A DNA stretch of 64,000 bases from Paenibacillaceae bacterium ZCTH02-B3 (GCA_002159065.1 LZRV01000077.1:12476-76475); one strand, 5' to 3'; positions 35,102-62,128 are shown, counted from the stretch's first letter. Numbers and translations: made by a program. The notes: a model not told the origin generated them from the letters alone.

Positions 35102-35205
35102 CTCGCCAACATTCCTCCTCCCCGCGTGCGGACAAAGCCGCACCAACCGCTCAAGGGCGCGGTGCGGCTTTGTCGCTTCTTGTGCCGGATGCCGCCCGGG
35201 CCGCC

Positions 35206-36354: not shown

Positions 36355-36543
36355 TTTCGCACGGCGGATACGGAGACGCTTTTTCGATTGGTGGGGATTT
36401 TTGGGGAAAAGGCGGAGGGCTTTGGCGGGAAACTTTCAATTTCATGTCCGGATGGTGTAAAATTTTTGTTGGATCGTTTTTTCTTGTTTTATTTTCCCGT
36501 AAATTTGATATATTAGACTTCACAACGGGAAGCGGAAAAAGGT

Positions 36544-45562: not shown

Positions 45563-45686
45563 CGATTCGTTCGCCTGCAGGCGATTCACCCTTGCGGGCT
45601 CTTCTCGCGCCGCCGGTTCGGTTTTGCTTTCGGCTCCGGGTCCGTTCGGCGCACTTCATCCAACACAAAGACGGGGAGGGATGACC

Positions 45687-47610: not shown

Positions 47611-48750
47611 TTATCCATCGGTTTTCGTCTCATCGGCCAGCCGGCGGAATCCTTCATCGTCGGCCAATTCCTCCAGCGTGAACCGCGAGAGCGTCAGGAT
47701 GAGCCGCGCCTTCTCCTCATGGGAGAGCTTCCCGCCGGGAAACCGGCGGTTCCATTTTTCCAGCCGCCGGGCGGCTTCGACGACCAGCCCTTGCAAAATG
47801 GCGAAGGCGCCGTCGGACAGCGTTCCCCGGTACTGGTGAATCCGTCCGTCCGGACGGCAGTCCGGGTAGCGTTCCAGGCCGAGGAAACGCAGGAACCACT
47901 CCGCCCGGTATTCGCCCGCCGCGACGATGATCGCGACGAAGTCGGCAATCAGCTCGTCGAGCAGCCGGGTGCGCATCGCGCCGAGCACGCGCCGGGTGAA
48001 ATAGTGGACGGATTCGTGTTCCAGGCGGATGGCCAGCGACAGCATCCGCCATTCGTGCTCCGGAAGCCCCATTTCCGCCGCGCCGACCTTGCTGTAGGGT
48101 CCGTCGGTCACGATGGCAAAGCGGTCCAGGTACAGTTCCTTCGGGAGCTCTCCCCCTTCACCCGATGGTTCCCGCCCGTCCCGGTGCCGTTTCAGCCGGT
48201 CCCAATTGCGATAGCCGGATATCAGGCAGGCGCCCATGGTGTCGGGGATCGGTTCCGGTTCGTTTCTCCGGACCAGGGCCTGGACCAATGCGACGAAATC
48301 GCTCCGCTCGCGGACGACGATGACAGGCAGGTGTCCGGCCGGCGTCGGGTGAAAAATCAGCTCGAGGCTGTCCGGGCTTCGCAGGATGAGTCCCGTCGCT
48401 TCGGGTATGCCCCGGGGATTTGCGCCCTGGCGGGTCACCGCCTGGTAGGCGGCCGTCGAGCTCATGCCTTCCCGGACCGGAAACCGCAGCTGGACCAGCT
48501 TCTCCTTCAGCACGGGAAACACGCCGGTCCCCCGGGCTTCCTCCGCGTAGCGCCGCCAGTCGGCGACAAACGGCTCGTCGTCCAGCGGATACTTCTGCGG
48601 AGGCGGATGCGCAAACACGTTGTCATTGTAGGCAAGCAGTTCTTCCGCTACCCGCCCGGTCGCGCCGAAGCGCGCGAGCACTTCCCTTCGAAGCGTGATC
48701 GGATCCACGGCCGCCTCCGGTTTGAGAAGATTTTCGCGCGACGTGCACAT
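47611..48750 (-). CDS. Uncharacterised 379-aa protein with an HExxH motif, encoded 4 nt after lanM
   Basis: The start is taken at ATG 48750, because Met1 of the track ORF lies inside lanM. HESVH is encoded at 48004-48018 within LAIRLEHESVHYFTRRVL. I recognise no family. Confidence 0.7.
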   Translation of the reverse strand: MCTSRENLLKPEAAVDPITLRREVLARFGATGRVAEELLAYNDNVFAHPPPQKYPLDDEPFVADWRRYAEEARGTGVFPVLKEKLVQLRFPVREGMSSTAAYQAVTRQGANPRGIPEATGLILRSPDSLELIFHPTPAGHLPVIVVRERSDFVALVQALVRRNEPEPIPDTMGACLISGYRNWDRLKRHRDGREPSGEGGELPKELYLDRFAIVTDGPYSKVGAAEMGLPEHEWRMLSLAIRLEHESVHYFTRRVLGAMRTRLLDELIADFVAIIVAAGEYRAEWFLRFLGLERYPDCRPDGRIHQYRGTLSDGAFAILQGLVVEAARRLEKWNRRFPGGKLSHEEKARLILTLSRFTLEELADDEGFRRLADETKTDG

Positions 48751-48754: not shown

Positions 48755-51700
48755 CTATCGCAATACACTTTGGATTTCCGCGGGAGCCGCGCACCGCAGC
48801 AAGGTATAGCCGATCCCCGAGATCCCCTGGAAAAAGGACGGATTGAACCAGGCGCCCCCGTCGCCCCCGTGAAGCAGATAGTGCCCGTTTCTCCGCTTGC
48901 GGGCGATGACCGCCCCCGCTTTCCGCCTTGCTTCCTCCAGCAGATCCGGCCGGCCAAGCGCAAGCGATGCCTCGACGAGAAAGTCGATTTTGCCCGCGTT
49001 GCCGCAGCAGACGTGGTCGTTCATTTCCAGCGTGCACGTGCGGGCAAATTCCACCGCGTTTTCGACGTCCCGCATGAACCGCCGGCGCAAGTTCCGTTCC
49101 CCGTCTTCCCCGCTTGCTGCGGCTTCCGCCTCTGTCCCGGCTTCGACGCCTGTTCCGGTTTGCGCGCTTTTTCCGGCATTCCCGCCGTCCGCGCCGGCGG
49201 TCAGCATGGCAATGCGGGCCAATCCGACGCCGGGAGCGCCGCTGCACCAGCCCGGCATGAACGCCGCACCGCCGCCCGCCGCCTGTACGGCCTTCTCGCG
49301 CAAATCCGGCCAATTGCCATGCTTTTCGTCATACAGGCTGTTTTCATAATCCACCGCTTCCATGGCCGCGTCCCGAAACGCCCGTTCTCCCGTCGCCCGC
49401 CACAGGCGGTACAGGGCGGCGGCATAGCCGGCCGCGCCGTGACCCATCCCCGTGAGAGGTTCCGGGGCGATTCCGGTGGTCCAGACCCGGTGGCCCGACT
49501 TCGCCCGCACCCGGGATTTCAGCAAATGTTCGCCGCACCGTTTCGCCAGATCGAGGAGATCGCCGCTCTTTTCGGAGCGGTGCAGATCGAGGAGCACCAG
49601 GATGAGGCCTGCCGCCCCGCCGAGCACGTCCAGCCAGCGGTCGCCGTCGATCTGTTCCGGCCGGATCCGGCGCACAAGCCACAGGGCGGCTTCCGTCAGG
49701 CCGGGTTCTCCCAGATAATCGCCCATGACCGCCAGACCCCTGACGATGCCCGCCAGGCCGCTTCCCAGTCCCAGGGGCATCCGGTACGCCGGGAACGGAT
49801 GATCCCGGTCGTTCAGGCTTTTCAGCAAAGGATTCAAGGCCTGGAGGACCGTTTCCCGGATCGCTTCCTTCCCCGTCAGCCGGTACAGGGCGGCCATGAA
49901 CACGCCCAGGCCGGCCAGTCCGTCGTAGAAGCCGAAGCCGATCCGGCCGAGGGTCATTTTTTGGGCCTGCAAATGATACTGCCGCACGATCCACGTGAAA
50001 TCCCCGTCCGCTCCCACGATCCGCCTGGCCATGATTTCCTCGCAGATGCCGGCGGCTTCCCCGATCAGAAGTTCGTCGCCCGGATCTTCCGGTTCCGCCG
50101 GGACGCGGAATTTGTCCGGCCTCTGGTTACGAGTCCGCTCCGGCGTCCGGCCCGGCGTCGGGTCCGGCAGCCGGTCCGGGGGCTGTTCCGAAGTCCGGTC
50201 CGGGGGCCGCTCCCCCGCCGCATGGGACGGCTCCGAGGCCATGGACAGGGCCGTCCTGATGAGATCGATCTGCGCGTTTTTGTCCCGTTCGTCCATGCGC
50301 CGGATCAGGGCTTTCGCCCGGTCGAAGGCGCTTTCGAGAAAATAGCCCGGATGAAGCGTCCCGCTTCCGTCCTCGAGGGCCAGATTCCGCGCGTGCCCGT
50401 AAAAGATCGGGACGTCCCGGTTTTCCAGCGCGTCCCGCTCCGCGCAAAACACCTTCCACAGCTCCCGCAGCCCGTCGTCGGGCGCCGCGATCAGGTAGGC
50501 CGGAGCCAGGCGTTCCACTTCGAAGGAATAGAGCAGTCCGTCGCGGAGAAACCCGGGCTGGGCGGCATGGTTCAGCACATCGGCATAAACTTGCGAGTTC
50601 CGGATCAGGATGCGGAACCGGCACGTTCCGAAAGCGTCGAGCGGCGACGTTTCCCCCGCGTGTTCTCCCAGGATCCGGGGCTTCTCCCCGGCGATCCGGT
50701 CGTAAGCCCACGCGAATCCGGCCAGCAGATGCTCCTCGTAATCCCGCACATCCAGCGGCCGGCCGTCCAGAACGGGCAGATGGAGACCGCGCTCTTCCCG
50801 GCAGGTGAGCGCCCCCCAGTCCGCCGCCTTCCCCTGGGCGTTCACGTGCCAGTACGGCAGCATGCCGACGCGCAGGACCGAATCGCCAAGGGTATCGAGG
50901 GCCAGATCGGCCGCGCTTTTGCCGCTTTCCCCCAGATGGAACGGTTTCACCCGGTGCAGAAGCAGCGTTTCCAGATCGACGGGGACGGGATGGGCGCCGC
51001 TGGCGATCAGGTTTTCGAAATGAAAGTCGTTTCCGCCCAGCGCGTAGATCGTGCCGAGGAGAACACCGGCCCGGAAATAGAAGGCCGCGGCGTCCTCTGG
51101 CCGCGTGAGCGGCCTTCGCTCCACGAATTCCGCCCAGCCGTGGTCTCCCTCGTCCAGCACCCGGGGCGTCCACAGCCGGTGGGGAATTCCGTCCCGTTCC
51201 AGGAAGCGGATCCATTCGTTCCAGGCGGCGTCAATGGCCAGGCTCCTGGGCTTGTAAACGAGTCTCAGGCCGGATTCGAAGGCGAGAAGAAGAACGGTTT
51301 TGCCCCCGTTGTGGACATCGGACGCGTTCGCCTCCACCGCGGTTACCCGCCCAAGCGGCCTGCCTTCGTGAAACGCCTCTTCCAGCTTCATCTGGTCCGC
51401 CGCGAGGCGGGCGGCGAATTCCGCCAGATTCCTCTTCCATTGGCCGATCGCCTGCACCATGAACCGGGCGAGGACGGGATGCTCCGCCAGCACGTCCTTC
51501 CATTTTCCCGCCGCAAGTTCCGCCAAATACGCTTTCCATTCCGCCTGCCACTCCTCGTGGAAGAACGAGGGTCCAAGCAGGAGATGCAGCGGTTTTTTGC
51601 CGCTCATGGCCGCCAGAAAACCGGCGCGGCACGTCCGGAAACTAAGCGTTGCCAGCCGCTTGGCCAGCGCCCTGCGCATGTCCCGTACGGCGGAATCGGC

Positions 51701-52156
51701 GAACAACCGGAGTTTCTCCCCAAGCCTTCCGGCCAGCTGCTCGCAGGCATCCTCCAGAAACGGCTCCAGGGCCGGGGTCGGATCCCACAACCCTTGGCCT
51801 TCTTCCGGCGGCGAAGCGGACATCCGCTGAAGCCGCGACAAGATGCGCTCCAGTTCCCGCACCCATTCGGGAAGGGGCGTTTCCGCCTTCCAACGCACGG
51901 GGCCGAGCAGCCGTCCGGCCTCGTCCGGCGAAAGTCCGTCCAGGGCGAGGCGTTTGCGAAACGCCGTCTCTCCGCCGCTTCCGCCGGCTTTTTTCCGCCA
52001 GCGGGCAAACAGGTCCTCACGGACCCCGGGCGGCGCCTCCCCGATCTCGACGGACCCCGCCCGCGACAGTTCCAGCCGTTCTTTGAGAAACAGCGCCCTG
52101 CCGGCGATTTCGCGCCATTCGTTCTCCGTGAACACGGCCATTCTAGACACCCGCAT
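48755..52156 (-). CDS. lanM: Class II lanthipeptide synthetase LanM (dehydratase + LanC-like cyclase), ProcM-like CCG type
   Basis: 1133 aa. The dehydratase motif is GGNDFHFENLIASGAHPVPVDLETL. The cyclase motifs are GMGHGAAGY, GWCSGAPGVG and VCCGNAGKIDF. The start may be Met6 (52141). Confidence 0.9.
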   Translation of the reverse strand: MRVSRMAVFTENEWREIAGRALFLKERLELSRAGSVEIGEAPPGVREDLFARWRKKAGGSGGETAFRKRLALDGLSPDEAGRLLGPVRWKAETPLPEWVRELERILSRLQRMSASPPEEGQGLWDPTPALEPFLEDACEQLAGRLGEKLRLFADSAVRDMRRALAKRLATLSFRTCRAGFLAAMSGKKPLHLLLGPSFFHEEWQAEWKAYLAELAAGKWKDVLAEHPVLARFMVQAIGQWKRNLAEFAARLAADQMKLEEAFHEGRPLGRVTAVEANASDVHNGGKTVLLLAFESGLRLVYKPRSLAIDAAWNEWIRFLERDGIPHRLWTPRVLDEGDHGWAEFVERRPLTRPEDAAAFYFRAGVLLGTIYALGGNDFHFENLIASGAHPVPVDLETLLLHRVKPFHLGESGKSAADLALDTLGDSVLRVGMLPYWHVNAQGKAADWGALTCREERGLHLPVLDGRPLDVRDYEEHLLAGFAWAYDRIAGEKPRILGEHAGETSPLDAFGTCRFRILIRNSQVYADVLNHAAQPGFLRDGLLYSFEVERLAPAYLIAAPDDGLRELWKVFCAERDALENRDVPIFYGHARNLALEDGSGTLHPGYFLESAFDRAKALIRRMDERDKNAQIDLIRTALSMASEPSHAAGERPPDRTSEQPPDRLPDPTPGRTPERTRNQRPDKFRVPAEPEDPGDELLIGEAAGICEEIMARRIVGADGDFTWIVRQYHLQAQKMTLGRIGFGFYDGLAGLGVFMAALYRLTGKEAIRETVLQALNPLLKSLNDRDHPFPAYRMPLGLGSGLAGIVRGLAVMGDYLGEPGLTEAALWLVRRIRPEQIDGDRWLDVLGGAAGLILVLLDLHRSEKSGDLLDLAKRCGEHLLKSRVRAKSGHRVWTTGIAPEPLTGMGHGAAGYAAALYRLWRATGERAFRDAAMEAVDYENSLYDEKHGNWPDLREKAVQAAGGGAAFMPGWCSGAPGVGLARIAMLTAGADGGNAGKSAQTGTGVEAGTEAEAAASGEDGERNLRRRFMRDVENAVEFARTCTLEMNDHVCCGNAGKIDFLVEASLALGRPDLLEEARRKAGAVIARKRRNGHYLLHGGDGGAWFNPSFFQGISGIGYTLLRCAAPAEIQSVLR

Positions 52157-53294
52157 CCAGGTACTCGAACTTGCCGCCCGTCACCTTCTTCAGCACGACG
52201 AGGTCGCCGATGTCCTCCCCGTTCCGGTCGAAGGTGTGGAACCCGGCGACGCCTTCCCAGTTTTCGATGGTATGAAGGGCAGCCGCGATGTCGCGGGGGA
52301 CGATCGACCGGGCCCGGTTCATGGCCTCGGCCAGCAGGTGGACGGCGTCATACCCCTGCGCGGAATATTGGGTCGGCATGGTGCCGTAAGCCCTGTTGAA
52401 AACATCGATGAACGCCTTCACCTTTTCCCGCCGGCTTTCGGGGTTGAAGAAGGCGCCGATCACCATGCCTTCCGCGGCCTTCGCCCCGGCGATGCTCCAC
52501 AGGTTCGGCGTGTCCATGGCGTTCCCCGCGAACAGCGGAACCCCGATGCCGGCCGCCCGCAGCTCCGCGACGAGCTGCGCGCCCGCCGCGCCCGACTTGG
52601 CGATGAAGATCCCGTCGTACTCCAGGATCTCCCATTTGAACTTGAGCCGCTCCAGTTCCGACGGTCCGGTATAGAAGGTCAGGCGGTCCACAATGTCGAT
52701 GCCGGAACGGCCCGCGTGTTTTTCAAAGGCGTCCGCCAGCCCCTTCCCATAGGCGTCGTCGTCGTACAGGATGACCATCCGGCGGTGTCCGTTCCGGGCG
52801 GCGTAGTTGGCCACGGAGGCGGCCACCTGCTCGTCGCTGGCGATGTTGCGGAACACGAGCCGCTGCTTCTCGCTGATGAATTCGGGAGCGCTGGAAGCGG
52901 GAGACAGCATGAGGATGCCGGCCCGTTCATAGATGGAGGAAACCGGAATGGACACGTAGGAATTCCGATGCCCGATCACGGCCACCACCTGGATGTCCTC
53001 CGAGAAAGACTGGGCGATTTCCAGCCCTTTCGTCACCGAGGATTCGTCGTCCTTGATAATGACGTTCAGCTGGCGCCCCAGCACCCCGCCGTCGGCGTTG
53101 AGTTCCGACACGGCAAGGGCAACGCCTTCCAGGAACCAGTCGTTGGCGGCGGAGATGGGCCAGGCCACTCCGATCGAAATGGGACCCCTGTGGCGCTTGG
53201 CGAAGGCTTCGCGCTCTTGCGCCGTGGATGCGACCGAGCAACCGGCAACGGCCATCGCCAGCAAGAGGAGGATGGCAATCGGCAAGCGTCTCAT
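52143..53294 (-). CDS. LivJ-like (Peripla_BP_6) ligand-binding lipoprotein
   Basis: GAAAGGAGAT lies upstream of ATG 53294. Lipobox LLAMAVAGCS. Contains ISIGVAWPISAANDWFLEGVALAVSELNADGGVLGRQL. It overlaps the annotated lanM start by 14 nt. Confidence 0.85.
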   Translation of the reverse strand: MRRLPIAILLLLAMAVAGCSVASTAQEREAFAKRHRGPISIGVAWPISAANDWFLEGVALAVSELNADGGVLGRQLNVIIKDDESSVTKGLEIAQSFSEDIQVVAVIGHRNSYVSIPVSSIYERAGILMLSPASSAPEFISEKQRLVFRNIASDEQVAASVANYAARNGHRRMVILYDDDAYGKGLADAFEKHAGRSGIDIVDRLTFYTGPSELERLKFKWEILEYDGIFIAKSGAAGAQLVAELRAAGIGVPLFAGNAMDTPNLWSIAGAKAAEGMVIGAFFNPESRREKVKAFIDVFNRAYGTMPTQYSAQGYDAVHLLAEAMNRARSIVPRDIAAALHTIENWEGVAGFHTFDRNGEDIGDLVVLKKVTGGKFEYLDAGV

Positions 53295-54583
53295 GCTTTG
53301 ATCTCCTTTCCAACCCGCACGGGACGGGACGCCTTGACCGCGGAACCATTGACGAGAATGGTCGACGCGCAGGCCAAATGCACGTTCAGCATCGTCAGGA
53401 TCGGGTCGACGATGGGCGTGACCGCGAGCAGCAGCACCACCGCCGTTTCCGAAGGAAGCCCCAGCGGCGCCAGAATGATGCCGATCATCGACAGCGAGAC
53501 GAGGGCGGGAGCCCCCGCGCCCGAGAGAGCGGCCAGGATGGAAGCCAGGAGGACCGTCGCGATTTGCCCCGGGCCCAAGGGCACGCCATACAGCTGGGCC
53601 ACAAAGATCGTCCCGACGGAAAACATCGTCACCATGCTGTACCGGCAAAGGATGATGCTCAGGGGAGTCACGAAATTGACCGTTTTCTCCTCCAGCCGGT
53701 AACGCGCGCGCAGCGCCTGGAAGATGAACGGCAGCGTCGCCAGGCTGTTGCGGGTGCCGAAGGCGATGAGCAGCGGCTGTTTGAGGTCCGCCGTCGACCG
53801 CACCAACGAACGCCCGGTCAGCTTCCAGATCAGAACCGCGCTCAGGAGCAGGATGATCAGGCACGCGAGATGGATCAGGACGATGAATTTCGTCATGGCC
53901 GCCAGCAAATCCATTCCCATCGACGCGAACTGGCCGGCCATCAGGCAGAGCAGCCCGACGGGCAGTCCGTAGATGCTCCAGCCGATGATCCGCTCGAAAG
54001 CCTTGTAGATCACCTCGATGACGTCCAGGACGTCGTCCCGCTTTTTCTCGCGGACGGTACCGATGGCCACGCCGAACACCATGGCCACGAACAGCACCTG
54101 CAGGTTCTGTTCGCCGAGCAGCGATTCGAACAGGTTGGTCGGGATGATCATGGCCAGAAAATCCATCACCGTAAAGGCGCCCTGCGTTCCGGACTGGCCG
54201 CTGACCATCGCCTCTCCGCCCATGATCGCGTTTCCCAGCACTTCCCGCGCGCGCTGATCCAGGCCGGTCCCCGGATTACCGATCAGCCCCACGCCGACGC
54301 CGATGAGGCTGACCAGCAGCAGGCCGGTGGCGAAGGTCAGCACCGTCCGCTTCAGGTAACGCACCGCCTCCCGCGAAGCCATGAGCTTGCCCAGGCTGGA
54401 GATGATGGCCGTCACCATGATGGGAACGACCAGCATTTTTAAAAAGGAAAGATACAATTCCCCGACGGGGGCGATAAACAGGGCGACATTCCGATCGTAG
54501 AGCCCCAGCAGAATGCCGATCGCCATCGCGGCCAGGGACGTGCCGGGCCGCTTGAGCCATTCCAGTTTCGCCATGGGTTTCAC
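53291..54583 (-). CDS. Dicarboxylate/amino acid:cation symporter (DAACS / SDF family)
   Basis: 430 aa. Contains LYLSFLKMLVVPIMVTAIISSLGKL and TRNSLATLPF plus a SxS-type reentrant-loop region. It has 4-nt overlaps with both neighbouring genes. Confidence 0.85.
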   Translation of the reverse strand: MKPMAKLEWLKRPGTSLAAMAIGILLGLYDRNVALFIAPVGELYLSFLKMLVVPIMVTAIISSLGKLMASREAVRYLKRTVLTFATGLLLVSLIGVGVGLIGNPGTGLDQRAREVLGNAIMGGEAMVSGQSGTQGAFTVMDFLAMIIPTNLFESLLGEQNLQVLFVAMVFGVAIGTVREKKRDDVLDVIEVIYKAFERIIGWSIYGLPVGLLCLMAGQFASMGMDLLAAMTKFIVLIHLACLIILLLSAVLIWKLTGRSLVRSTADLKQPLLIAFGTRNSLATLPFIFQALRARYRLEEKTVNFVTPLSIILCRYSMVTMFSVGTIFVAQLYGVPLGPGQIATVLLASILAALSGAGAPALVSLSMIGIILAPLGLPSETAVVLLLAVTPIVDPILTMLNVHLACASTILVNGSAVKASRPVRVGKEIKA

Positions 54584-55512
54584 TCCGTCCCCCGGCCCGG
54601 TTCGCCGGGCGAATTGCCGTACCGGTCAAGCAGCTGGCCGATGTCCAGCGGCGGCAGATAGGCCAGATATTCCTTCAGCCATGCCTGCATGTGGAAGTGG
54701 CTCGGCGGAATGGCGACGGCCAGGTTGTCCTTGCGCCCTTCCAGCACGACAAATTGCAGATCCAACAGGACGTCCGGAAATTCGTTGATGTGCCGCTGGA
54801 ACTCGAACTCGTCGTAAAACGCGGCCGCGATGTCTCCCCGCCGCACGTCTTCCAGCATGCGCTCCCTCGAATCATACGGAACGACTTCCGACGCGTGGAA
54901 AATTTCCCGGGCAAATTCCATGTAGGATGTTCCCGCCATGGCGCCGATTTCCACCGGGTTGGTCCGCAGCAGTTCGATCGGGTCCGTCATCTGCCGGGTT
55001 TTCAGGGCGGCCAGCCGCATCCGGTTGACGAGCAGCGCCTGCCTCAGCGACAGATACGGTTCGCTGAACAGCACCCGCTGGGCGCGGTTCAGCGTGATGC
55101 TGATCTTCGAGACGGCCATGTCGTACCGGCCCGCGGCCACCAGATCGATGAGCTCTTCAAACGACCGCGCCGAGCGGTCGAACCGGACCTCCGCGACGCC
55201 CAATTGGCGGGCGATGTCCCGGGCCATTTCCACGTCGCTGCCGACCAGTTCTCCCCGCTCGTCCACAAAGAAAAAGGGAAAGCGGTCTTCCGCATACATG
55301 CCCACCGTCAGGTAGCCGTTTTCATGGATCCGCCGAAATTCGTCGGGCAGCGTCGGAAAATACCGGGGGTCCATCGTTTTCACGGGCTCGGGCGAGCCGT
55401 TTGGCCTCGGCGTTCCGCTTGTCTCGGGCCCGTTGCCGGCGGGAGCGCCGCATGCGCCAAGGATTGCCGACAGGACCAGTGCGGCCAGGAAGGTTTTGAA
55501 TTCCCGATTCAT
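54580..55512 (-). CDS. Amino-acid-type solute-binding lipoprotein (SBP_bac_3)
   Basis: Lipobox AILGACG followed by a Pro-rich linker. Contains YLTVGMYAEDRFPFFFVDERGELVGSDVEMARDIARQLG. Confidence 0.8.
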   Translation of the reverse strand: MNREFKTFLAALVLSAILGACGAPAGNGPETSGTPRPNGSPEPVKTMDPRYFPTLPDEFRRIHENGYLTVGMYAEDRFPFFFVDERGELVGSDVEMARDIARQLGVAEVRFDRSARSFEELIDLVAAGRYDMAVSKISITLNRAQRVLFSEPYLSLRQALLVNRMRLAALKTRQMTDPIELLRTNPVEIGAMAGTSYMEFAREIFHASEVVPYDSRERMLEDVRRGDIAAAFYDEFEFQRHINEFPDVLLDLQFVVLEGRKDNLAVAIPPSHFHMQAWLKEYLAYLPPLDIGQLLDRYGNSPGEPGRGTE

Positions 55513-55526: not shown

Positions 55527-58187
55527 TCAGGCCATTTGCCGTTTGGCCAGTTCGTAAAATGTCCCGCCGCGGTCCATCAGTTCCCGGAACGTCCCTTCTT
55601 CCACGACCCGGCCGTTTTCCAGCACGTAGATGCGGTCGGCGTTCATGATCGTGCTCAGCCGGTGGGCGATGACCACCCGCGTCGCTTTCAGCTGTTCGAT
55701 GCTGTCGCTGACCATCTTCTGCGTCCGGTTGTCCAGGGCGCTCGTGGCTTCGTCGAAGAACAGGATTTTCGGCTTGTGGACCAGGGCCCGGGCGATCAGA
55801 AGGCGCTGCCGCTGTCCGCCCGACAGCGTGCGGCCGCCGTCGTCGACCATGGTGAACATGCCCATCGGCATGTTGCGGATGTCCTCTTCCAGCCCGGCCA
55901 TCCGGGCCGCCTCCCAGGCGTCTTCCATCGTCAGGTTCGAAGAACCGATAATGTTGGTCAAAATGTCGCCGGCGAGCACCTGTCCTCCCTGTAGGACGAC
56001 GCCCAGCTGGCTTCTCACTTCCTGGATATCCAGGTCTTGCAGATTGTGATTGTCGTAGTAAACGGCTCCGGAGGTCGGGCGTTCAAATCCGAGAAGCAGG
56101 CGGAGCAGCGTCGACTTGCCGCTTCCCGACGGTCCCGCGATGGCGACGAATTCCCCGGGGTTGACCCGGATGGACACATCCTTGAGCACAAATTCCCCGT
56201 CTTCATCGTAACGGAAATCGACGTGGCTCACCTCGATGGCGCCCGTGAGCTCCCCGGGATCTTCCTTCTCCTCGCCGATCTCCGGCTCCGTCTCCAGAAT
56301 CGGCTTGGCCCGTTCATACAACGGAATGATGTTGAGCGCCATGATGAGGGACGTCCCCATGGCCATCATCGACATGATGAATCCGGAAAACGCGCTGTGA
56401 AAAGCGAGAAACGCCCCGGCGGGCATCGCCGGCGCGAACCCGATCACCCCGAAAAACAGCAGCATCGTCGTAACCGTGGGATAGACCGCATGGAACACGG
56501 AGGACCAAATGCGGATGAGCCCCGTGCGGAAGCCCGTTTTCCGGACTTCCCCGAAATGGTCCGACCACATGCCGAAGGCTCTTTTTTCCGCGCCGGCCAT
56601 GCGAAACTTGGAGACGCCGCCCACGATCTGGAACACGATTCCGGTCAGCTTGCCGTTGAGTTCCGCCAGCACCCGTTCCTTGCGGACCATGACAAAACCG
56701 ATGAGCGCCACCACCCCGATGCCGACGGCCACCAGGACGGTGGCCATCCAGGCCAGCCGGGCGCTGTAATAGAACAGCAGAAAAAACTGGGTGGATGAAA
56801 ACAGGGCGTTGAAGACGGTGTTCAGCGTCGTCCCCGACAGCGCCTGCCGGATTGCGGCGATGCTGCCCGCGCGAAGGGCCAGATCCCCCGAACTGTATTT
56901 CCGGAAAAACGGCACCGGCAGATTGAGCACCCGGTCCCAGACCGCGGCCTGAATGCCGGAGTCGAGCCGCGCTTCCATGCGCAGCATGGCGATGGAGCGC
57001 GTAATCTGGAACGTAAGCGACGCCACGGCAATGGCGGTGAGGATCAGCACGAAATCGAACATCCGGCCGCGTTCCGCGCCCGGAATGATGCGGTCCACCA
57101 GTTCTCCCGTCCCCATGGGAATGGCGAGGGACAGAAGACCGCCGATGATGCCGAAGGCGGTCATCACAAAGACGTCCTTCCGGAGCCGGGGCGTCTGCGA
57201 GCTGAACCGCATCAGATCCCAGAGGGTGAGCCGGCGCGGGGGAAACGGCCGGTACAACATGTAGGCCCGCCGGTCCAACTGCCGGTCGATTTCCCGGGTC
57301 ACCCGCCGGACGTTCCCGTCGACCAGATCGTGCATCTCGTAGTGTTTGTCTCTTTTGACAATAAGGGCAACCGGACGCCGATCCTCCTTGCGGAAGGCCA
57401 GCAGGTGTCCGTTGTCCTGCTTCCACCACTCGCCTTCCAGCTGGACTTGCCGCATCCGGATTTTGGACGCCTTGACGATCTGTTTCAGCCGCGCCGCGGG
57501 ATCCTCATCGGACGATTTCCTCAGCGGCGCGGTGACGGGAATATGGCTTTTTTGTCCGATGAGCCGGCACGTGCGGAACAGGACATCGCGATCCAGCACC
57601 GTCACCTTGGGAGCCTGGTCCTTCCCGAACCGGATGGTGTCCGTCAGGTTTTTCACGGACAGCTCCATCCGTTTCCGGTCGATGACCGTCAGCCGCCGCA
57701 GGCGTTCGGCTTCCCGCGCGGACGACGCCGCCAGGAACCGCCGCACCGCCTCCAGAAAGGCTTCCCGGTCGAAGGATTCCGGCTTGGGAACATCGGTGCC
57801 GGCGAGCTGCATCCATCTGAGCAGCCGGTCTTCCCACTCCCGGACCAGACGCGCAAATCCCGGAATCGAGGAACGCTCGTCCGCCGGCGCGTCGATCCGG
57901 ATCAGTTCCGTGTCCGCAACCCCGGTCATCACCAACCGGAAGGGAAATTCGCGTTCCCTGTCCGGGTCGATGCCGAGGCCGGCGATGAGCTGGCCTTCCC
58001 GCACGGATAAGAGATATTCCCGTCTCCCCCGCGCTTCCGGATCCGTTCCCGCCACCGCAAACAGGTTCACCTCGCCGGTCCGCACATACCACGCGGACCG
58101 GTCCCGTCCCCAGTCAACGGTCCGGTTTCCCGTGAGCGGCATGATTTCGCCGAGTTTTTCCAGTTCCAACGCGAGACTGTCCGACAT
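55527..58187 (-). CDS. ABC exporter (permease + ATPase) with ~330-aa N-terminal extension and no C39 peptidase; NHLM-type second transporter
   Basis: Six TM segments, Walker A GPSGSGKST, signature LSGGQRQR. The N-terminal region has a beta-barrel-like pattern (cNMP-binding-like) and lacks the QxxxxxCG peptidase motif. Confidence 0.85.
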   Translation of the reverse strand: MSDSLALELEKLGEIMPLTGNRTVDWGRDRSAWYVRTGEVNLFAVAGTDPEARGRREYLLSVREGQLIAGLGIDPDREREFPFRLVMTGVADTELIRIDAPADERSSIPGFARLVREWEDRLLRWMQLAGTDVPKPESFDREAFLEAVRRFLAASSAREAERLRRLTVIDRKRMELSVKNLTDTIRFGKDQAPKVTVLDRDVLFRTCRLIGQKSHIPVTAPLRKSSDEDPAARLKQIVKASKIRMRQVQLEGEWWKQDNGHLLAFRKEDRRPVALIVKRDKHYEMHDLVDGNVRRVTREIDRQLDRRAYMLYRPFPPRRLTLWDLMRFSSQTPRLRKDVFVMTAFGIIGGLLSLAIPMGTGELVDRIIPGAERGRMFDFVLILTAIAVASLTFQITRSIAMLRMEARLDSGIQAAVWDRVLNLPVPFFRKYSSGDLALRAGSIAAIRQALSGTTLNTVFNALFSSTQFFLLFYYSARLAWMATVLVAVGIGVVALIGFVMVRKERVLAELNGKLTGIVFQIVGGVSKFRMAGAEKRAFGMWSDHFGEVRKTGFRTGLIRIWSSVFHAVYPTVTTMLLFFGVIGFAPAMPAGAFLAFHSAFSGFIMSMMAMGTSLIMALNIIPLYERAKPILETEPEIGEEKEDPGELTGAIEVSHVDFRYDEDGEFVLKDVSIRVNPGEFVAIAGPSGSGKSTLLRLLLGFERPTSGAVYYDNHNLQDLDIQEVRSQLGVVLQGGQVLAGDILTNIIGSSNLTMEDAWEAARMAGLEEDIRNMPMGMFTMVDDGGRTLSGGQRQRLLIARALVHKPKILFFDEATSALDNRTQKMVSDSIEQLKATRVVIAHRLSTIMNADRIYVLENGRVVEEGTFRELMDRGGTFYELAKRQMA

Positions 58188-58210: not shown

Positions 58211-60367
58211 TCAGGCTTCCCGTATCAGCCTGGCATAGGGGCCATCCACGCCCGCCAGCTGTTCATGCGTTCCCCGCTGGACGATCTTCCCCCGGTCCAT
58301 CACGATGATCTCGTCGCAGTCGCGAATCGTGCTGAGCCGATGAGCGATGATCAGGCACGTGCAGCCCCTCCTGCGGAGGTTGCGGTCGATCGCGAGTTCC
58401 GTCGTGGGATCAAGGGCGCTCGTCGCTTCGTCCAGGACCAGAATCGACGGATTGTTGACGAGCGCCCGGGCGATCTCCAGGCGCTGCTTCTGGCCGCCGC
58501 TGAAGTTTCGCGCCCCCTCCTCGATGATATGGTCGTAACCGCCCGGCTTTTTGACGATGTCGTCGTGGATGCAGGCGTCCTTGGCCGCGCGGACGATGTC
58601 CGTTTCGGGCACCGTCGGATCCCACAGCGTCAGATTGTCCCGGATGGTGCCCTCGAACATGTGGATGTCCTGGTCCACGACGGCGACGGAATTCGTCAGC
58701 ACGTAACGGTCCCAATCCCGGCGGGGCTTTCCGTCGAACAGGATTTCCCCGCTCCAGGGCTGATAGAGACCGGTCACCAGTTTCGCCACCGTAGACTTGC
58801 CGCTGCCGGAGCCGCCGACGAGCGCCACCCTGGACCCGGGTTCGAGCACCAGGTTGAAATTCTCGATCAGCGGCGGTTCCAGGCGGCTGTATCCGAAGGT
58901 CACGTCGCGCAATTCCACCTTGCCCGTCAGCTTGCTTACCGGATGATCGGCCTGAAACTCCGCTTCCCGCTCCCTTTGCGTTTCGGGATCCAGTCTGTAC
59001 CGGAGCACGTCGTTCAGCCGGTTCAGATCCCCTTTCACTTCGTCCAGCTGGCTGCCGAGCTGGATCAGGCCGTTCACGGGGGCCATGAAGCTTTGCATCA
59101 GGGATTGAAACGCCACCACCATCCCGATCGTCATCTCGCCCGACATGACCAGCCAGCCGCCGATCCCCAGGATGGCGATTTGGCTGAGAAACGTCAGGAA
59201 AGGCGGAACGGCGTTCACCGCCTGTGTCTGCAGCCCGAGCTTTTGCTGCGTGTTCGTCAGCTTCGCATACAGCCCGGCCCACTTGTTGAAGAAGTCCCCT
59301 TCCCGGCCGCCGGCTTTCAGCGTTTCGATCATCCGCAGTCCGGCCATGGTCGTGCCCGCGATTTTCCCCTGTTCCTGGAGGAGCTTCATGTTTTCGTCCA
59401 CGCGGATTCGCGACACGCGCCTGAGATAAAGGAAATTCAAAATGGCGAAAAACACGGCGACCAGCGTCAAGAGAACGCTGTATCGCACCATGATCACCGT
59501 ATAGAAAACGACCGACAGGCAGTTCAGGAAGTTGGTGGAAAGCTGGCCCGACAGCAGCATCGCCACCCGGTCGTTCGAACCGATCCGCTGCGTGATGTCG
59601 CCGCTGTGCCGCTGGGTGAAAAACTCCATGGGCAGGCGAAGCACGTGCCAGAAATACTTGCCCGCCATGCTGATGGACAGCGCCGTTTCCAGTCTCAGCA
59701 GGTAATATTGCTGCAGCCATGTGAAGGCGCCATGGAGCAACGCCGCCGACGCCATGCCGACGAGCAGGGGGAGGAGCCAGTGATGCAGGCCGGCCAGCAG
59801 GATGTCGTCCACGAAAAGCTGGACAAACATGGGAATGACCAGACCCGGCACGACCAGCAGGAGGCTGACGAGCACGACGTACAAGAGCGCCGCTTTCATC
59901 GGCGCGATCCGGGCGTACAGCAGGGAGAGAAAATTCGCTTTTCGCTTTTCCTTCTTGAAATGCTCGCCGGGCTCAAAGACGAGCACAATTCCCGTGAAGC
60001 TGCGGTCGAATTCCTCTTCGGTCACGGTTCGCCGGCCGGTGGCGGGATCGTTCAGGTAAAACTTCTTGTTGCGGAAGCCTTCCAGCACGACAAAATGGTT
60101 GAAATTCCAGTGGATGATCACCGGCATTTTCATCTGTTTGAGCTCTTCCGGCTCTTTCCGGTAGCCTTTGGCAACCAGGCCGTATTCCCGCGCCGCCTTC
60201 ACGATGTTGCTCGCCTTGCTGCCGTCGCGCGACACGCCGCAGGCGACCCGCAGCTCTTCCAAAGGGATGTGCTTGCCGTGGTAACCCAAAATAATGCCCA
60301 AAGCGGCGGCCCCGCACTCCACCGCTTCCATTTGGATGACCGTGGGAGTTTTCACGCGATTGCCCAT
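58211..60367 (-). CDS. Bacteriocin/lanthipeptide ABC exporter with N-terminal C39 double-glycine peptidase domain
   Basis: From ATG 60367 the sequence reads MGNRVKTPTVIQMEAVECGAAALGIILGYHGKHIPLEELR (catalytic Cys). Walker A GGSGSGKST, signature FSGGQKQR. Confidence 0.9.
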   Translation of the reverse strand: MGNRVKTPTVIQMEAVECGAAALGIILGYHGKHIPLEELRVACGVSRDGSKASNIVKAAREYGLVAKGYRKEPEELKQMKMPVIIHWNFNHFVVLEGFRNKKFYLNDPATGRRTVTEEEFDRSFTGIVLVFEPGEHFKKEKRKANFLSLLYARIAPMKAALLYVVLVSLLLVVPGLVIPMFVQLFVDDILLAGLHHWLLPLLVGMASAALLHGAFTWLQQYYLLRLETALSISMAGKYFWHVLRLPMEFFTQRHSGDITQRIGSNDRVAMLLSGQLSTNFLNCLSVVFYTVIMVRYSVLLTLVAVFFAILNFLYLRRVSRIRVDENMKLLQEQGKIAGTTMAGLRMIETLKAGGREGDFFNKWAGLYAKLTNTQQKLGLQTQAVNAVPPFLTFLSQIAILGIGGWLVMSGEMTIGMVVAFQSLMQSFMAPVNGLIQLGSQLDEVKGDLNRLNDVLRYRLDPETQREREAEFQADHPVSKLTGKVELRDVTFGYSRLEPPLIENFNLVLEPGSRVALVGGSGSGKSTVAKLVTGLYQPWSGEILFDGKPRRDWDRYVLTNSVAVVDQDIHMFEGTIRDNLTLWDPTVPETDIVRAAKDACIHDDIVKKPGGYDHIIEEGARNFSGGQKQRLEIARALVNNPSILVLDEATSALDPTTELAIDRNLRRRGCTCLIIAHRLSTIRDCDEIIVMDRGKIVQRGTHEQLAGVDGPYARLIREA

Positions 60368-60384: not shown

Positions 60385-61344
60385 TCATTTGAGCTGAGGG
60401 AAGATCTTCGCCAGGGGCGGCGAATCTTCCACCGTGATGATGCCGTTCACCAGCGTCCCGCTTTGGATGGGAACGGGCGGGCCATCCGAGCTGGACCATT
60501 TATAGCCGCTTTCCGTGCCGGCGTCCGGAATCAGATGAACCCTCACTTCGATGGGAGCGCCCGCCCCGGCCAGCGTTCTCGCCAGATCTTCGTTGCCGAG
60601 CACGTTGACCATTCCCTGGAAGGTCGAAGGAAACTCGTTGACGCGGGTGACCCGTCCGAGCAGATATCCGTAGGTTTCTTTCGAAATGGAAGCCGCCTCG
60701 AGCTTCACTTCCATCCCGGGATGGATCCGCTTTCCGTCGCCGGGCGACACGTACAGGACGGCCTCGAGGGTGTTCAGCTGCTCTCCCGCCTGCTCGATGG
60801 TGGCCACCTGGGCCCCCCTGGGGATATATTCGCCGCGCCGCACTTTCACCTCGACGACTTTGCCCGAGTACGGGCTGACGATTCTGGTCGCGAGATTCAG
60901 CTGGTCCCTCAGGGCGTCCAGTTTCTCGCGCAACTCCCGCACCAGGGGCTGGTCGTCCCCGGCTCCGGCGGCGAGCAGGCTGCGGAGCTGGGCTTCGGTA
61001 AACTGGATCTCGCTCAGGATTTCCGGTTGCTGGAGCCGCGCGACCACTTCGCCCTTTTCGATGAAATCGCCGGTCCCGACCCGGATGTCCGACACCTGTC
61101 CGCTTTCGGTGGTCACGATGGTCTGGATCCCGCCCGAACTGATCAGGATGCCCTGGCCGTACACGTTCACCGGCAGACTTCCGGCGAATCCCCAGACGAC
61201 AATGGCCCCGAGCAGGGCAACGACGCCGGCGAGGGCGATCCACGACCGCCAGGAAATGACCGTAAGCAGCCGGTCGAGCTGCTCCGGCGATTCCAGAGAT
61301 TCAAGAGACGCTTTGCGAAAAAGCTGCTGATTCCTCATCGCCAT
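60385..61344 (-). CDS. HlyD-family secretion adaptor (NHLM bacteriocin secretion protein type)
   Basis: The start is taken at ATG 61344. Contains MAMRNQQLFRKASLESLESPEQLD, a single TM helix WIALAGVVALLGAIVVWGF, and coiled-coil plus barrel-sandwich regions. Confidence 0.85.
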   Translation of the reverse strand: MAMRNQQLFRKASLESLESPEQLDRLLTVISWRSWIALAGVVALLGAIVVWGFAGSLPVNVYGQGILISSGGIQTIVTTESGQVSDIRVGTGDFIEKGEVVARLQQPEILSEIQFTEAQLRSLLAAGAGDDQPLVRELREKLDALRDQLNLATRIVSPYSGKVVEVKVRRGEYIPRGAQVATIEQAGEQLNTLEAVLYVSPGDGKRIHPGMEVKLEAASISKETYGYLLGRVTRVNEFPSTFQGMVNVLGNEDLARTLAGAGAPIEVRVHLIPDAGTESGYKWSSSDGPPVPIQSGTLVNGIITVEDSPPLAKIFPQLK

Positions 61345-61765: not shown

Positions 61766-62128
61766 TCATTTAAAAACACAAGAGAAGTGTGAATCGCCCG
61801 CCGCCTCCGCGACCGCCCCGATTGCCGAAAGTGCGCATAAAACGCCGGTCGCGGGTATGAACGAAAAAATGAGCCACCAATCTCCGCCGGCGACCGCCTC
61901 CAATTGCGCGTCGTCCAGTTCCCCCGCCGCCCGATACTGGGCGACGATCTCCCGTTGGTACCGTTCCAGATCTTCCGTGCTGAAAGGAAGACCCGCTTCC
62001 TCCCCGAGCCGGACCAGGACGCCCTTCATGTTTTCCCGGCTTTCCTGGCCAAGGCGGGCGATCTTTTCCCGCAACGCTTCATCCTCCCGAACCTTTTGCA
62101 AAAAAAGCCTGACATTTTCCATCGACAT
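61766..62128 (-). CDS. Nif11-type leader peptide precursor 4
   Basis: RBS GGAGTG. Leader MSMENVRLFLQKVREDEALREKIARL...DAQLEAVAGG, core DWWLIFSFIPATGVLCALSAIGAVAEAAGDSHFSCVFK. Confidence 0.85.
   Translation of the reverse strand: MSMENVRLFLQKVREDEALREKIARLGQESRENMKGVLVRLGEEAGLPFSTEDLERYQREIVAQYRAAGELDDAQLEAVAGGDWWLIFSFIPATGVLCALSAIGAVAEAAGDSHFSCVFK

What the first reader, a model, noticed from the sequence alone, without database searches (positions are those of the whole stretch)
52143..55512. Two orphan solute-binding lipoproteins and a DAACS symporter embedded between the exporter genes and lanM
Seen: the SBP_bac_3 lipoprotein (lipobox LGAC), the DAACS carrier and the LivJ-like lipoprotein (lipobox VAGC) are linked by 4-nt ATGA-type overlaps (54580-54583 and 53291-53294). 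The last gene overlaps the lanM start by 14 nt. They are therefore translated as part of the biosynthetic operon. No importer-type ABC permease or ATPase genes are present for the two binding proteins. Established: the DAACS family includes Glu/Asp, Ser/Thr (SstT) and cystine (TcyP) carriers. The SBP_bac_3 family includes cystine- and amino-acid-binding proteins. Lantibiotic self-immunity proteins (LanI) are typically membrane-anchored lipoproteins. Inference: I see three alternatives. (i) Dedicated supply of Ser/Thr/Cys for peptide production. (ii) Binding proteins recruited as LanI-like immunity or product-sensing lipoproteins, since no LanFEG genes are seen. (iii) A signal input for the kinase-less regulator. 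I am not aware of this module being described in lanthipeptide clusters.
Basis: partly seen in the sequence, partly recalled or inferred. Interest (0 to 1): 0.7.

Follow-up and report, generated by a model that had tools for sequence, protein, structure and literature searches.

The report
Amino-acid binding proteins attached to peptide exporter
The two lipoproteins and the carrier are real, but they are not special to this lanthipeptide cluster: they are conserved, so far undescribed companions of one type of peptide-export pump, and the carrier looks like a new kind of binding-protein-dependent transporter or sensor.

Summary
The three genes exist as described: an SBP_bac_3 lipoprotein, a DAACS/SDF carrier and a LivJ-like lipoprotein, packed into the exporter–lanM operon. 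Two gene junctions need small corrections.

They are not lanthipeptide-specific. In 33 of 36 well-flanked genome loci that carry this SDF subfamily, the NHLP/Nif11-type exporter (HlyD, C39-ABC, second ABC) is also present. Only 1 of the 36 has LanM; 18 have KS+GNAT and 5 have radical SAM.

The LivJ-like protein belongs to a distinct subfamily that sits beside this exporter in 29 of 31 flanked metagenome loci, mostly without the carrier. Its 47%-identical relative from a Desulfitobacterium exporter locus was crystallised with L-leucine (PDB 4Q6B).

The SBP_bac_3 protein is adjacent to the carrier in 30 loci and fused to it in 10, always with an extra membrane helix. The carrier clade has lost the NMDGT sodium motif (now CRYSM, Arg near-invariant). 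Clade relatives are fused to dCache–cyclase signalling modules.

[quoted passage not shown] I found no prior description. The physiological role remains inferred.

The parts
54580..55512 (-). SBP_bac_3 lipoprotein ('SBP3', 310 aa, lipobox LGAC). Predicted alpha-amino-acid binding protein and partner of the carrier.
   Evidence: PF00497, 74 bits. All NCBIfam equivalogs far below cutoff. Carboxylate-binding Arg conserved 44/44 and Asp 42/44 in the subfamily. Adjacent to SDF in 30 loci and fused to it in 10.
53291..54574 (-). Divergent DAACS/SDF carrier (427 aa; an alternative GTG start at 54583 is less likely). Lacks the canonical Na+ sites.
   Evidence: PF00375, 231 bits. DctA, GltP and SstT models at 111/106/45 bits against cutoffs of 513/638/308. 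NMDGT is replaced by CRYSM, the R397 equivalent is Leu and the D405 equivalent is Ala. Distinct subfamily scoring >200 bits, against <=124 bits for ordinary SDF proteins.
52143..53294 (-). LivJ-like type-I binding lipoprotein ('PBP6', 383 aa, lipobox VAGC). Exporter-associated subfamily, predicted to bind Leu or another branched-chain amino acid.
   Evidence: PF13458, 177 bits. PDB 4MLC/4Q6B at E=3e-106. AF2 model pLDDT 90.3; Foldseek target-normalised TM-score 0.94 to 4Q6B, 'complex with Leu'. Next to an exporter gene in 29 of 31 flanked loci.
55527..58187 (-). NHLP bacteriocin export ABC permease/ATPase without a peptidase domain (ABC2). Its first ~330 aa have no Pfam or PDB match; TIGR03797 aligns from residue 201.
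   Evidence: TIGR03797, 927.7 bits against cutoff 709.4. No PDB match for residues 1-330.
58211..60367 (-). NHLP-family C39 peptidase/permease/ATPase exporter subunit (ABC1).
   Evidence: TIGR03796, 1130 bits against cutoff 853.3. PF03412.
60385..61344 (-). NHLP bacteriocin system HlyD-type secretion protein.
   Evidence: TIGR03794, 313.6 bits against cutoff 156.2.
48755..52141 (-). Class II lanthipeptide synthetase LanM. The conserved start lies 1 nt after the PBP6 stop.
   Evidence: TIGR03897, 691 bits. N-terminus matches the L001 orthologue.
61766..62128 (-). Nif11-leader precursor. Core after GG: DWWLIFSFIPATGVLCALSAIGAVAEAAGDSHFSCVFK.
   Evidence: TIGR03798, 48.7 bits. Translation.
62239..62574 (-). 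Second Nif11-leader precursor. Its core has no Cys.
   Evidence: TIGR03798, 34.7 bits. Translation.
47611..48750 (-). DUF7005 protein with an HESVH (HEXXH) motif. A recurrent neighbour of PBP6 and the exporter in other loci.
   Evidence: PF22541, 406 bits. Adjacent to or overlapping PBP6 in L060, L095, L098, L099, L105-L108, L113, L117 and L118.
43749..44462 (-). Orphan OmpR-type response regulator with Glu at the phospho-acceptor position. Conserved orthogroup in these loci.
   Evidence: PF00072 + PF00486. Acceptor column is D15/E5 across 20 orthologues; the window has Glu. The nearest kinase is an unrelated YesM-type kinase at 36544-38406.

Best explanation
The three genes are two separable accessory modules of an NHLP/Nif11-type RiPP exporter. 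They are not part of lanthipeptide chemistry.

(1) PBP6 is a surface-anchored Leu-type amino-acid binding protein. It forms a constant fourth gene alongside HlyD, C39-ABC and the second ABC in a large clade of these exporters.

(2) SBP3 binds a free alpha-amino acid outside the cell and hands it to the DAACS carrier. That carrier has lost the Na+-coordinating residues and carries a fixed Arg in their place. The pair would therefore be a binding-protein-dependent, Na+-independent elevator carrier or 'transceptor'. In this lineage the ligand is predicted to have a neutral or aliphatic side chain.

(3) Inferred role: together they read, and partly import, the extracellular amino-acid pool. They couple production or export of the peptide to that signal, much as the orphan binding protein DctB and the DAACS carrier DctA act as co-sensors for DctS in Bacillus subtilis.

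Shown: gene linkage, the fusions, motif loss and retention, and a Leu-bound crystal structure of a 47%-identical relative from another exporter locus. Inferred: the direct SBP3-to-carrier hand-off, the ligand class, any contact with the exporter, and the regulatory output.
For: Linkage to the exporter:
- Of 36 species-level genome loci with >=19 kb around an SDF-subfamily gene, 30 contain SBP3, PBP6, HlyD, ABC1 and ABC2. Three more have an SBP3::SDF fusion plus the exporter.
- There are five gene orders. The loci come from Bacillota, Desulfobacterota-type lineages, Muiribacteriota and Planctomycetota.
- Maturase class varies: KS+GNAT 18, radical SAM 5, LanM 1.
- Two separate copies of the six-gene set occur in one genome, one per RiPP cluster: Paenibacillus sp. 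HJGM_3 (L008, L026) and P. plantiphilus (L017, L041).

PBP6:
- 64 metagenome loci score >=200 bits. Of the 31 with flanks, 29 show an adjacent exporter gene. The median gap to HlyD or ABC2 is about 0 nt.
- 16 ordinary LivJ-like loci (141-165 bits) never have the exporter; at least six of them carry weak ABC-ATPase matches (50-75 bits) as expected of importer genes.
- D. hafniense DCB-2 (L059) has Nif11, rSAM, PBP6, HlyD, ABC1 and ABC2 with no SDF. Its PBP6 is PDB 4MLC/4Q6B, 'complex with Leu'.

SBP3 and SDF:
- 10 natural fusions all show a signal peptide, the SBP domain, an extra membrane helix, a K/R patch and then carrier TM1. This is the topology needed to keep the SBP outside the cell.
- The two genes are adjacent in 30 loci.
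- SBP3 keeps its Arg 44/44 and Asp 42/44.

Carrier motifs (117 subfamily members against 49 canonical SDF proteins):
- NMDGT becomes C107 R114 Y99 S101 M99.
- The D405 equivalent becomes N/T/A.
- The R397 equivalent becomes L/I/V.
- The D394 and N401 equivalents are kept.

Signalling links:
- Clade members are fused to dCache plus a class III cyclase (P0301, P0304, P0381).
- The Treponema locus reads HK-MCP-SBP3-SDF-racemase.
- A hybrid kinase lies next to SBP3 in 19 loci.
- The regulator orthogroup is conserved.

Precedents: the DctS-DctB-DctA tripartite sensor (PMC6978683). TAXI-GltS was proposed from the same kinds of evidence (PMC12344293).
Against: - No experiment bears on function.
- The genes are co-transcribed with biosynthesis and export. 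That fits supply or immunity as well as sensing.
- PBP6 has no identified membrane partner; contact with HlyD or the ABC subunits is pure inference.
- The window has no histidine kinase for the regulator, so any signalling route here is undefined.
- Loss of the Na+ sites does not exclude H+-coupled or other concentrative uptake.
- The AF2 model of a natural fusion gave no confident docking (pTM 0.59).
- Metagenome loci are partly redundant, so those counts are not independent.
- The SBP3 homologue search was shallow: 16 hits, limited by the word index.
Confidence: 0.42

Rival explanations
1. Nutritional supply. The module is a high-affinity amino-acid uptake system, co-expressed with the cluster to replace the amino acids lost in exported peptide and long leaders. 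SBP3, and possibly PBP6, feed the carrier.
For: A binding protein next to a carrier is the classical uptake arrangement, and the fusions support a hand-off. All the predicted or observed ligands are amino acids. The genes are co-transcribed with biosynthesis. The hydrophobic R397-equivalent fits neutral amino acids, which are abundant in the hydrophobic cores.
Against: - The carrier has lost N310, D312 and D405, the residues that couple transport to Na+.
- Most PBP6-exporter loci have no carrier at all: 7 of 10 with >=9 kb of flank on both sides, including D. hafniense. PBP6 cannot be an uptake component there.
- Two cluster-specific copies in one genome are unnecessary for general nutrition.
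- Linkage is to the exporter rather than to the maturases.
Confidence: 0.22
2. Structural or chaperone parts of the export apparatus. PBP6, and perhaps SBP3, receive or hold the exported peptide or stabilise the HlyD assembly outside the membrane. Amino-acid binding is vestigial.
For: PBP6 is embedded in the exporter operon: directly upstream of HlyD, directly after ABC2, or between the outer-membrane factor gene and HlyD in Muiribacteriota.
Against: The subfamily keeps the cleft loops of amino-acid-binding LivJ proteins (Ser112 94/94, Thr 90/94). A 47%-identical orthologue crystallised with a free Leu in a closed LivJ-type fold. A closed flytrap of this type cannot enclose a peptide; that last point rests on established knowledge of LivJ-type proteins and was not tested here.
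Confidence: 0.15
3. Self-immunity. The lipoproteins sequester the mature product as LanI does, or the carrier is a resistant copy or decoy of the product's target.
For: The cluster contains no LanFEG or LanI genes, and both proteins are lipoproteins.
Against: - Neither lipoprotein matched any Pfam family other than binding-protein families.
- The module is shared by chemically unrelated RiPP classes and also occurs in loci that carry an outer-membrane factor gene.
- The ligand-binding residues are those for free amino acids.
Confidence: 0.08
4. Chance neighbours. An unrelated uptake operon was inserted into the cluster.
For: A Treponema locus has the SBP3-SDF pair with no RiPP genes nearby.
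Against: The six genes co-occur in 33 of 36 well-flanked loci, across four phyla and five gene orders.
Confidence: 0.02

Closest known systems
NHLP/Nif11 ('NHLM') bacteriocin export system: TIGR03794 HlyD, TIGR03796 C39-ABC, TIGR03797 ABC (Haft et al. 2010, PMC2887384)
   Same: The window's three exporter proteins pass the equivalog cutoffs. Nif11-leader precursors and a mix-and-match maturase are present, as Haft described.
   Different: Haft's phylogenetic profiling found only the three transport genes. Here a large clade carries a fourth constant gene (PBP6), and a subset also carries the SBP3-SDF pair. No NCBIfam or Pfam model exists for these accessories.
[quoted passage not shown] 2025, PMC12344293); also TRAP and TTT systems
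   Same: The evidence pattern is the same: a binding-protein gene co-localised and tightly coupled with an elevator-type secondary carrier, rare natural fusions with the binding protein at the N-terminus, and no ABC importer.
   Different: The membrane component comes from a different family (DAACS/SDF, the GltPh fold, rather than GltS, DctQM or TctAB). The binding protein comes from a different family too (SBP_bac_3 rather than TAXI, DctP or TctC). The carrier lacks its family's Na+ sites. The pair is embedded in RiPP export loci.
DctB-DctA-DctS tripartite C4-dicarboxylate sensor of Bacillus subtilis (Graf et al. 2014, cited via PMC6978683)
   Same: An orphan extracellular binding protein and a DAACS carrier act together as a sensory input rather than only as an uptake system.
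   Different: DctA is a canonical DAACS dicarboxylate carrier. DctB belongs to a different binding-protein family (from my own knowledge, not tested). A cognate kinase is present there. The window has no kinase, and its regulator has Glu at the acceptor site. A kinase is adjacent to SBP3 only in the KS+GNAT-type loci.
LivJ/LivK branched-chain amino-acid binding proteins of HAAT ABC importers; PDB 4MLC/4Q6B
   Same: Same fold, and Leu is bound in the 47%-identical orthologue.
   Different: No LivHMGF genes are nearby; the protein always sits next to a peptide exporter. It is a separate subfamily, scoring >=200 bits against 141-165 bits for ordinary LivJ-type neighbours of importers.
LanI-type lantibiotic immunity lipoproteins
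   Same: They are lipoproteins encoded in a lanthipeptide cluster.
   Different: No sequence family in common. The ligand residues are those for free amino acids. The genes are present mostly in non-lanthipeptide clusters.

Membership tests
DAACS / SDF superfamily (PF00375) | Full-length match to the family profile and to solved GltPh-type transporters | tested here: met
   231 bits against cutoff 27.9, covering profile positions 6-385 of 387. Aligned over residues 15-409 to PDB 9bgz at E=1.8e-34.
Canonical ion-coupled DAACS carriers (GltPh/GltP/DctA/SstT type) | NMDGT motif and the D405-equivalent that coordinate Na+ | tested here: not met
   The window has CRYSM and Ala. Subfamily columns: C107 R114 Y99 S101 M99 of 117, and N/T/A at the D405 equivalent. 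The 49 canonical relatives have N34 M46 D41 G49 T30 and D34.
Canonical ion-coupled DAACS carriers (GltPh/GltP/DctA/SstT type) | Substrate-binding residues D394, R397 and N401 | tested here: inconclusive
   D is kept in 105/117 and N in 103/117. R is replaced by L/I/V (107/117) in unfused members and kept in 8 of 11 fusion-size members. NCBIfam DctA, GltP and SstT all score far below cutoff.
SBP_bac_3 polar amino-acid binding proteins of ABC importers | Family profile match, plus the Arg and Asp that hold the ligand's alpha-carboxylate and alpha-amino groups | tested here: met
   PF00497, 74 bits. Arg 44/44 and Asp 42/44. The assignment of these two residues to ligand contacts is by homology with HisJ/GlnH-type proteins (established knowledge).
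SBP_bac_3 polar amino-acid binding proteins of ABC importers | Cognate permease and ATPase genes nearby | tested here: not met
   None in the operon or in the related loci.
LivJ-type (HAAT) binding proteins | Fold and amino-acid ligand | tested here: met
   AF2 model pLDDT 90.3. Foldseek target-normalised TM-score 0.94-0.95 and 47% identity to 4MLC/4Q6B, 'complex with Leu'.
LivJ-type (HAAT) binding proteins | Cognate LivHMGF importer | tested here: not met
   Absent. Weak ABC-ATPase matches consistent with importer genes appear only beside the 141-165-bit LivJ relatives, in at least six of those 16 loci. NCBIfam PRK15404 scores 122 against cutoff 477.
Binding-protein-dependent secondary transporters (TRAP, TTT, TAXI-GltS) | Binding-protein gene coupled to a secondary carrier, with natural fusions | tested here: met
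   5-nt spacer in the window. Adjacent in 30 loci. 10 fusions with a topology-correcting extra helix.
Binding-protein-dependent secondary transporters (TRAP, TTT, TAXI-GltS) | Membrane component homologous to DctQM, TctAB or GltS | tested here: not met
   The carrier is PF00375 only. It would therefore be a new class, not a member of these families.
Binding-protein-dependent secondary transporters (TRAP, TTT, TAXI-GltS) | Transport requires the binding protein | not testable with these tools
   Needs reconstitution or genetics.
NHLP/Nif11 bacteriocin export system | TIGR03794, TIGR03796 and TIGR03797 all present above cutoff, next to NHLP/Nif11 precursors | tested here: met
   313.6/156.2, 1130/853.3 and 927.7/709.4 bits. 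Three Nif11 precursors are present.
LanI-type immunity lipoproteins | Sequence or fold relation to known LanI proteins, and restriction to lantibiotic clusters | tested here: not met
   Only binding-protein families were hit. LanM is present in 1 of 36 loci.
DctB-DctA-DctS-type tripartite sensor | Orphan binding protein + DAACS carrier + cognate histidine kinase and regulator | tested here: inconclusive
   The binding protein, carrier and regulator are present. There is no kinase in the window. A hybrid kinase lies next to SBP3 in 19 related loci. Physical interaction is not testable here.

The most novel reading that the evidence does not exclude
A nutrient-gated secretion system. An ABC peptide exporter of the NHLP/PCAT type would have its activity or expression controlled from outside the cell by amino-acid-loaded binding proteins. 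PBP6 would act on HlyD or the ABC subunits. A Na+-independent DAACS 'transceptor' fed by SBP3 would relay the signal inward. [quoted passage not shown]
Probability: 0.15. Interest if true: 0.9.

Novelty: new variant of a known kind. Interest (0 to 1): 0.72.

Why it matters
For RiPP biology, it redefines a widely used export system. The NHLP/Nif11 exporter, used by lanthipeptides, proteusin-like radical-SAM peptides and ribosomal lipopeptides, would have four to six components rather than three. The extra components are exactly the genes that genome-mining pipelines filter out as 'common transporters'. Heterologous expression and yield may depend on them.

[quoted passage not shown] The carrier is built on the best-understood elevator fold (GltPh), and its Na+ sites are replaced by a fixed Arg. 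That bears directly on the question raised in 2025: why binding proteins pair only with elevator-type carriers.

It also gives a biological context to an orphan structural-genomics entry (4MLC/4Q6B).

Tried and rejected
- AF2 model of the natural SBP3::SDF fusion P0069. Mean pLDDT 71.7 and pTM 0.59, with the SBP part poorly modelled because the alignment was shallow. It says nothing about docking. It only confirms a long extra helix (residues 281-308) between the two domains.
- PDB sequence searches with the ABC2 N-terminal 330 aa and with DUF7005. No matches.
- Promoter and terminator scan. Hits were at chance level, so there is no evidence for independent transcription.
- Homologue search with SBP3. 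Only 16 hits, because of the word index. I used phmmer on the fetched loci instead.
- Literature searches for a prior description. I searched NHLP with binding protein and symporter, Pfam accessions with RiPP, DAACS with binding-protein fusion, 4MLC/4Q6B, and DUF7005. Nothing relevant turned up. The library lacks most subscription-journal papers, so absence is not proof.
- Both binding proteins feeding the carrier. Rejected as a general model, because most PBP6-exporter loci, including D. hafniense, have no carrier.
- A hidden importer elsewhere in the window. Only a CUT2 sugar system with its own binding protein is present.
- Not done: testing whether exporters without PBP6 form a separate clade.

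Full report
**Observation.** The minus strand of the window carries a tightly packed operon.
- Two Nif11-leader precursors: 62574..62239 and 62128..61766.
- The NHLP-type exporter, with all three proteins above their NCBIfam equivalog cutoffs: HlyD 61344..60385 (TIGR03794), C39-ABC 60367..58211 (TIGR03796) and a second ABC 58187..55527 (TIGR03797).
- An SBP_bac_3 lipoprotein, 55512..54580, lipobox LGAC.
- An SDF/DAACS carrier, 54574..53291.
- A Peripla_BP_6/LivJ-like lipoprotein, 53294..52143, lipobox VAGC.
- LanM (52141..48755), a DUF7005 protein and a 5'-nucleotidase lipoprotein.

The ATGA overlap at 53294-53291 is real. Two junction details need correcting.
- The junction at 54580-54583 reads GTGA. 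The start conserved in orthologues is the ATG at 54574, 5 nt after the stop and with a well-spaced GGAG.
- LanM starts at the conserved ATG at 52141, 1 nt after the stop, not at 52156.

Terminator-like and promoter-like hits are at chance level. The only importer in the 64-kb window is a CUT2 sugar system 17 kb away, with its own binding protein. One of the window's own proteins is 100% identical to a protein of 'Paenibacillaceae bacterium ZCTH02-B3'.

**The carrier belongs to a distinct subfamily that travels with the exporter, not with LanM.** A homologue search separates a subfamily scoring >200 bits from ordinary SDF proteins at <=124 bits. A scan of one genome per species returned 51 loci. 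I searched these with the window's proteins. Of the 36 loci with >=19 kb of sequence:
- 30 contain SBP3, PBP6, HlyD, ABC1 and ABC2;
- 3 more have an SBP3::SDF fusion plus the exporter;
- 1 (L043) is an NHLP/radical-SAM cluster whose exporter would fall just outside the flank;
- 1 is pseudogenised;
- 1 (Treponema) has HK-MCP-SBP3-SDF-racemase and no RiPP genes.

Five gene orders occur. The loci come from Bacillota, Desulfobacterota-type lineages, Muiribacteriota and Planctomycetota. Maturase class among the 36 is KS+GNAT 18, radical SAM 5, LanM 1 and undetermined 12. Two genomes carry two complete sets, one per RiPP cluster (L008/L026 and L017/L041).

**The LivJ-like protein is a fourth exporter gene with a wider distribution.** Its homologues also form a separate subfamily, scoring >=256 bits with a gap down to <=191. 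A metagenome scan anchored on it gave 64 subfamily loci.
- Of the 31 with >=1.5 kb on both sides, 29 show an adjacent exporter gene. The other two have a HlyD remnant.
- Of the 10 with >=9 kb on both sides, all have HlyD and ABC1, but only 3 have SDF and SBP3.
- The 16 loci with ordinary LivJ-like proteins (141-165 bits) never have the exporter. At least six of them carry weak ABC-ATPase matches, as expected of importer genes.
- The median distance from PBP6 to HlyD or ABC2 is about zero.
- These metagenome loci are partly redundant, so the counts are not independent.

The closest solved structure, PDB 4MLC/4Q6B (E=3e-106), is the Desulfitobacterium hafniense DCB-2 protein P0164. Its locus reads Nif11, radical SAM, PBP6, HlyD, ABC1, ABC2, with no carrier within 10 kb. 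The AF2 model of the window protein (pLDDT 90.3) matches 4Q6B, 'complex with Leu', at target-normalised TM-score 0.94 and 47% identity. A Longimicrobium locus reads OEP-HlyD-ABC1-ABC2-PBP6-DUF7005.

**SBP3 and the carrier work together.**
- Ten natural fusions come from Muiribacteriota, Wallbacteria, Planctomycetota and Desulfonatronovibrio. All show a signal peptide, the SBP domain, an extra hydrophobic helix followed by K/R residues, and then carrier TM1. This topology keeps the binding domain outside while the carrier N-terminus stays inside.
- In unfused loci, SBP3 is immediately upstream of the carrier in 25 and immediately downstream in 5. It lies 5.0-5.9 kb away in the 19 KS+GNAT-type loci, where it sits next to a hybrid histidine kinase.
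- SBP3 keeps the Arg (44/44) and Asp (42/44) that hold the alpha-carboxylate and alpha-amino groups in homologous amino-acid binding proteins.

**The carrier is not a canonical symporter.** I compared 117 subfamily members with 49 canonical SDF proteins.

| Position (GltPh numbering) | Canonical | Subfamily |
|---|---|---|
| NMDGT motif | N34 M46 D41 G49 T30 | C107 R114 Y99 S101 M99 |
| HP1 Ser-Ser | S49 S48 | N104 S110 |
| D405 | D34/Q13 | N/T/A |
| R397 (side-chain contact) | R 49/49 | L/I/V in 107/117; R kept in 8 of 11 fusion-size members |
| D394 | D 48/49 | D 105/117 |
| N401 | N 48/49 | N 103/117 |

A profile search of 1.84 billion representative proteins shows the clade exceeds 150 clusters at 50% identity. 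The 150th-best hit still scores 344 bits. Among the top 149, Arg occupies motif position 2 in 101, and none has NMDGT. Other architectures in the clade:
- SBP_bac_3 fused at the C-terminus, mostly without an extra helix and therefore presumably cytoplasmic;
- SDF-TM-dCache-TM-class III nucleotide cyclase.

**Mechanism.** My best reading treats the trio as two accessory modules of the exporter that read or import extracellular amino acids.
- PBP6 binds Leu or a similar amino acid and acts with the exporter. Its partner is unknown.
- SBP3 loads a neutral amino acid onto a Na+-independent DAACS elevator that acts as carrier, transceptor or both.
- The closest functional precedents are the DctB-DctA-DctS co-sensor of B. 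subtilis and the TAXI-GltS proposal. The latter states that only TRAP and TTT carriers were previously known to use soluble binding proteins.
- The OmpR-type regulator is a conserved orthogroup. Its phospho-acceptor is Glu in this lineage (D15/E5), and no cognate kinase lies nearby.

The rivals are nutritional supply, a structural or chaperone role in export, and immunity. All remain possible, and none has been tested experimentally.

**Novelty.** Haft 2010 linked NHLP peptides only to the three transport genes. Hubrich 2022 filtered out transporters before analysing clusters. No Pfam or NCBIfam model covers these subfamilies. Six targeted literature searches found no description. I rate it a new variant of known kinds: a binding-protein-dependent secondary carrier, and an accessory of a known exporter.

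Noticed in passing
window 45681-46034 (+): A third Nif11-leader precursor lies on the opposite strand, between the 5'-nucleotidase and the regulator. Core after GG: LDLFWHIVFSFAVFGCIAVEIVEWGEKLE. It shares a W-x-I-x-FSF motif with the precursor at 62128..61766. The same arrangement occurs in L001.
   Followed up: partly
window 43749-44462 (-): The OmpR-type response regulator has Glu where the phospho-acceptor Asp should be (PDLILMEAILPDGDG). Five of 20 orthologues share this; the others keep Asp. No cognate kinase is nearby.
   Followed up: partly
window 47611-48750 (-): A DUF7005 protein with an HESVH (HEXXH) motif starts 4 nt after the lanM stop. In many other loci it is adjacent to or overlapping PBP6 (ABC2-PBP6-DUF7005). 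It has no PDB homologue and no literature.
   Followed up: partly
window 57198-58187 (-): The first ~330 residues of the second ABC subunit match no Pfam family and no solved structure. TIGR03797 aligns only from residue 201. This may be a regulatory or leader-binding domain.
   Followed up: partly
window 62239-62574 (-): The first precursor's core (TGSISQDEIDGHSYILQAAVRLGFAPFKG) has no cysteine, so it cannot form lanthionine rings on its own.
   Followed up: no
window 46062-47582 (-): A 5'-nucleotidase-family lipoprotein is the last gene of the operon. It is conserved in the closest LanM-type relatives (L001, L061, L073). Its role in a RiPP cluster is unexplained.
   Followed up: no
L059 (D. 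hafniense DCB-2, CP001336.1 103685-124827): The structural-genomics entries 4MLC/4Q6B are annotated as an ABC-importer binding protein. They in fact come from a Nif11/radical-SAM/NHLP-exporter locus with no importer genes.
   Followed up: yes
P0287, P0302, P0278, P0264 and P0301, P0304, P0381 (one search hits): Sister members of the carrier clade carry a C-terminal SBP_bac_3 domain with no extra membrane helix, so it is presumably cytoplasmic. Others carry a C-terminal dCache plus adenylate/guanylate cyclase module.
   Followed up: partly
L060 14201-16370: The Longimicrobium locus has eight tandem ORFs of about 50-57 aa after a sigma-54 activator, next to OEP-HlyD-ABC1-ABC2-PBP6-DUF7005. They may be short precursors without an NHLP/Nif11 leader.
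   Followed up: no
L007, L043 and other KS+GNAT or radical-SAM loci: A ~290-aa GNAT gene directly follows, and in L007 overlaps, the SDF gene in the KS+GNAT-type and Muiribacteriota loci. GNAT genes also accompany LanM in L025 and L027.
   Followed up: no
window 31576-41006: An unrelated CUT2-type sugar ABC importer, a YesM/YesN-type two-component system and a Peripla_BP_4 sugar-binding protein lie here. A PAS-GGDEF protein lies at 41003-42562.
   Followed up: partly
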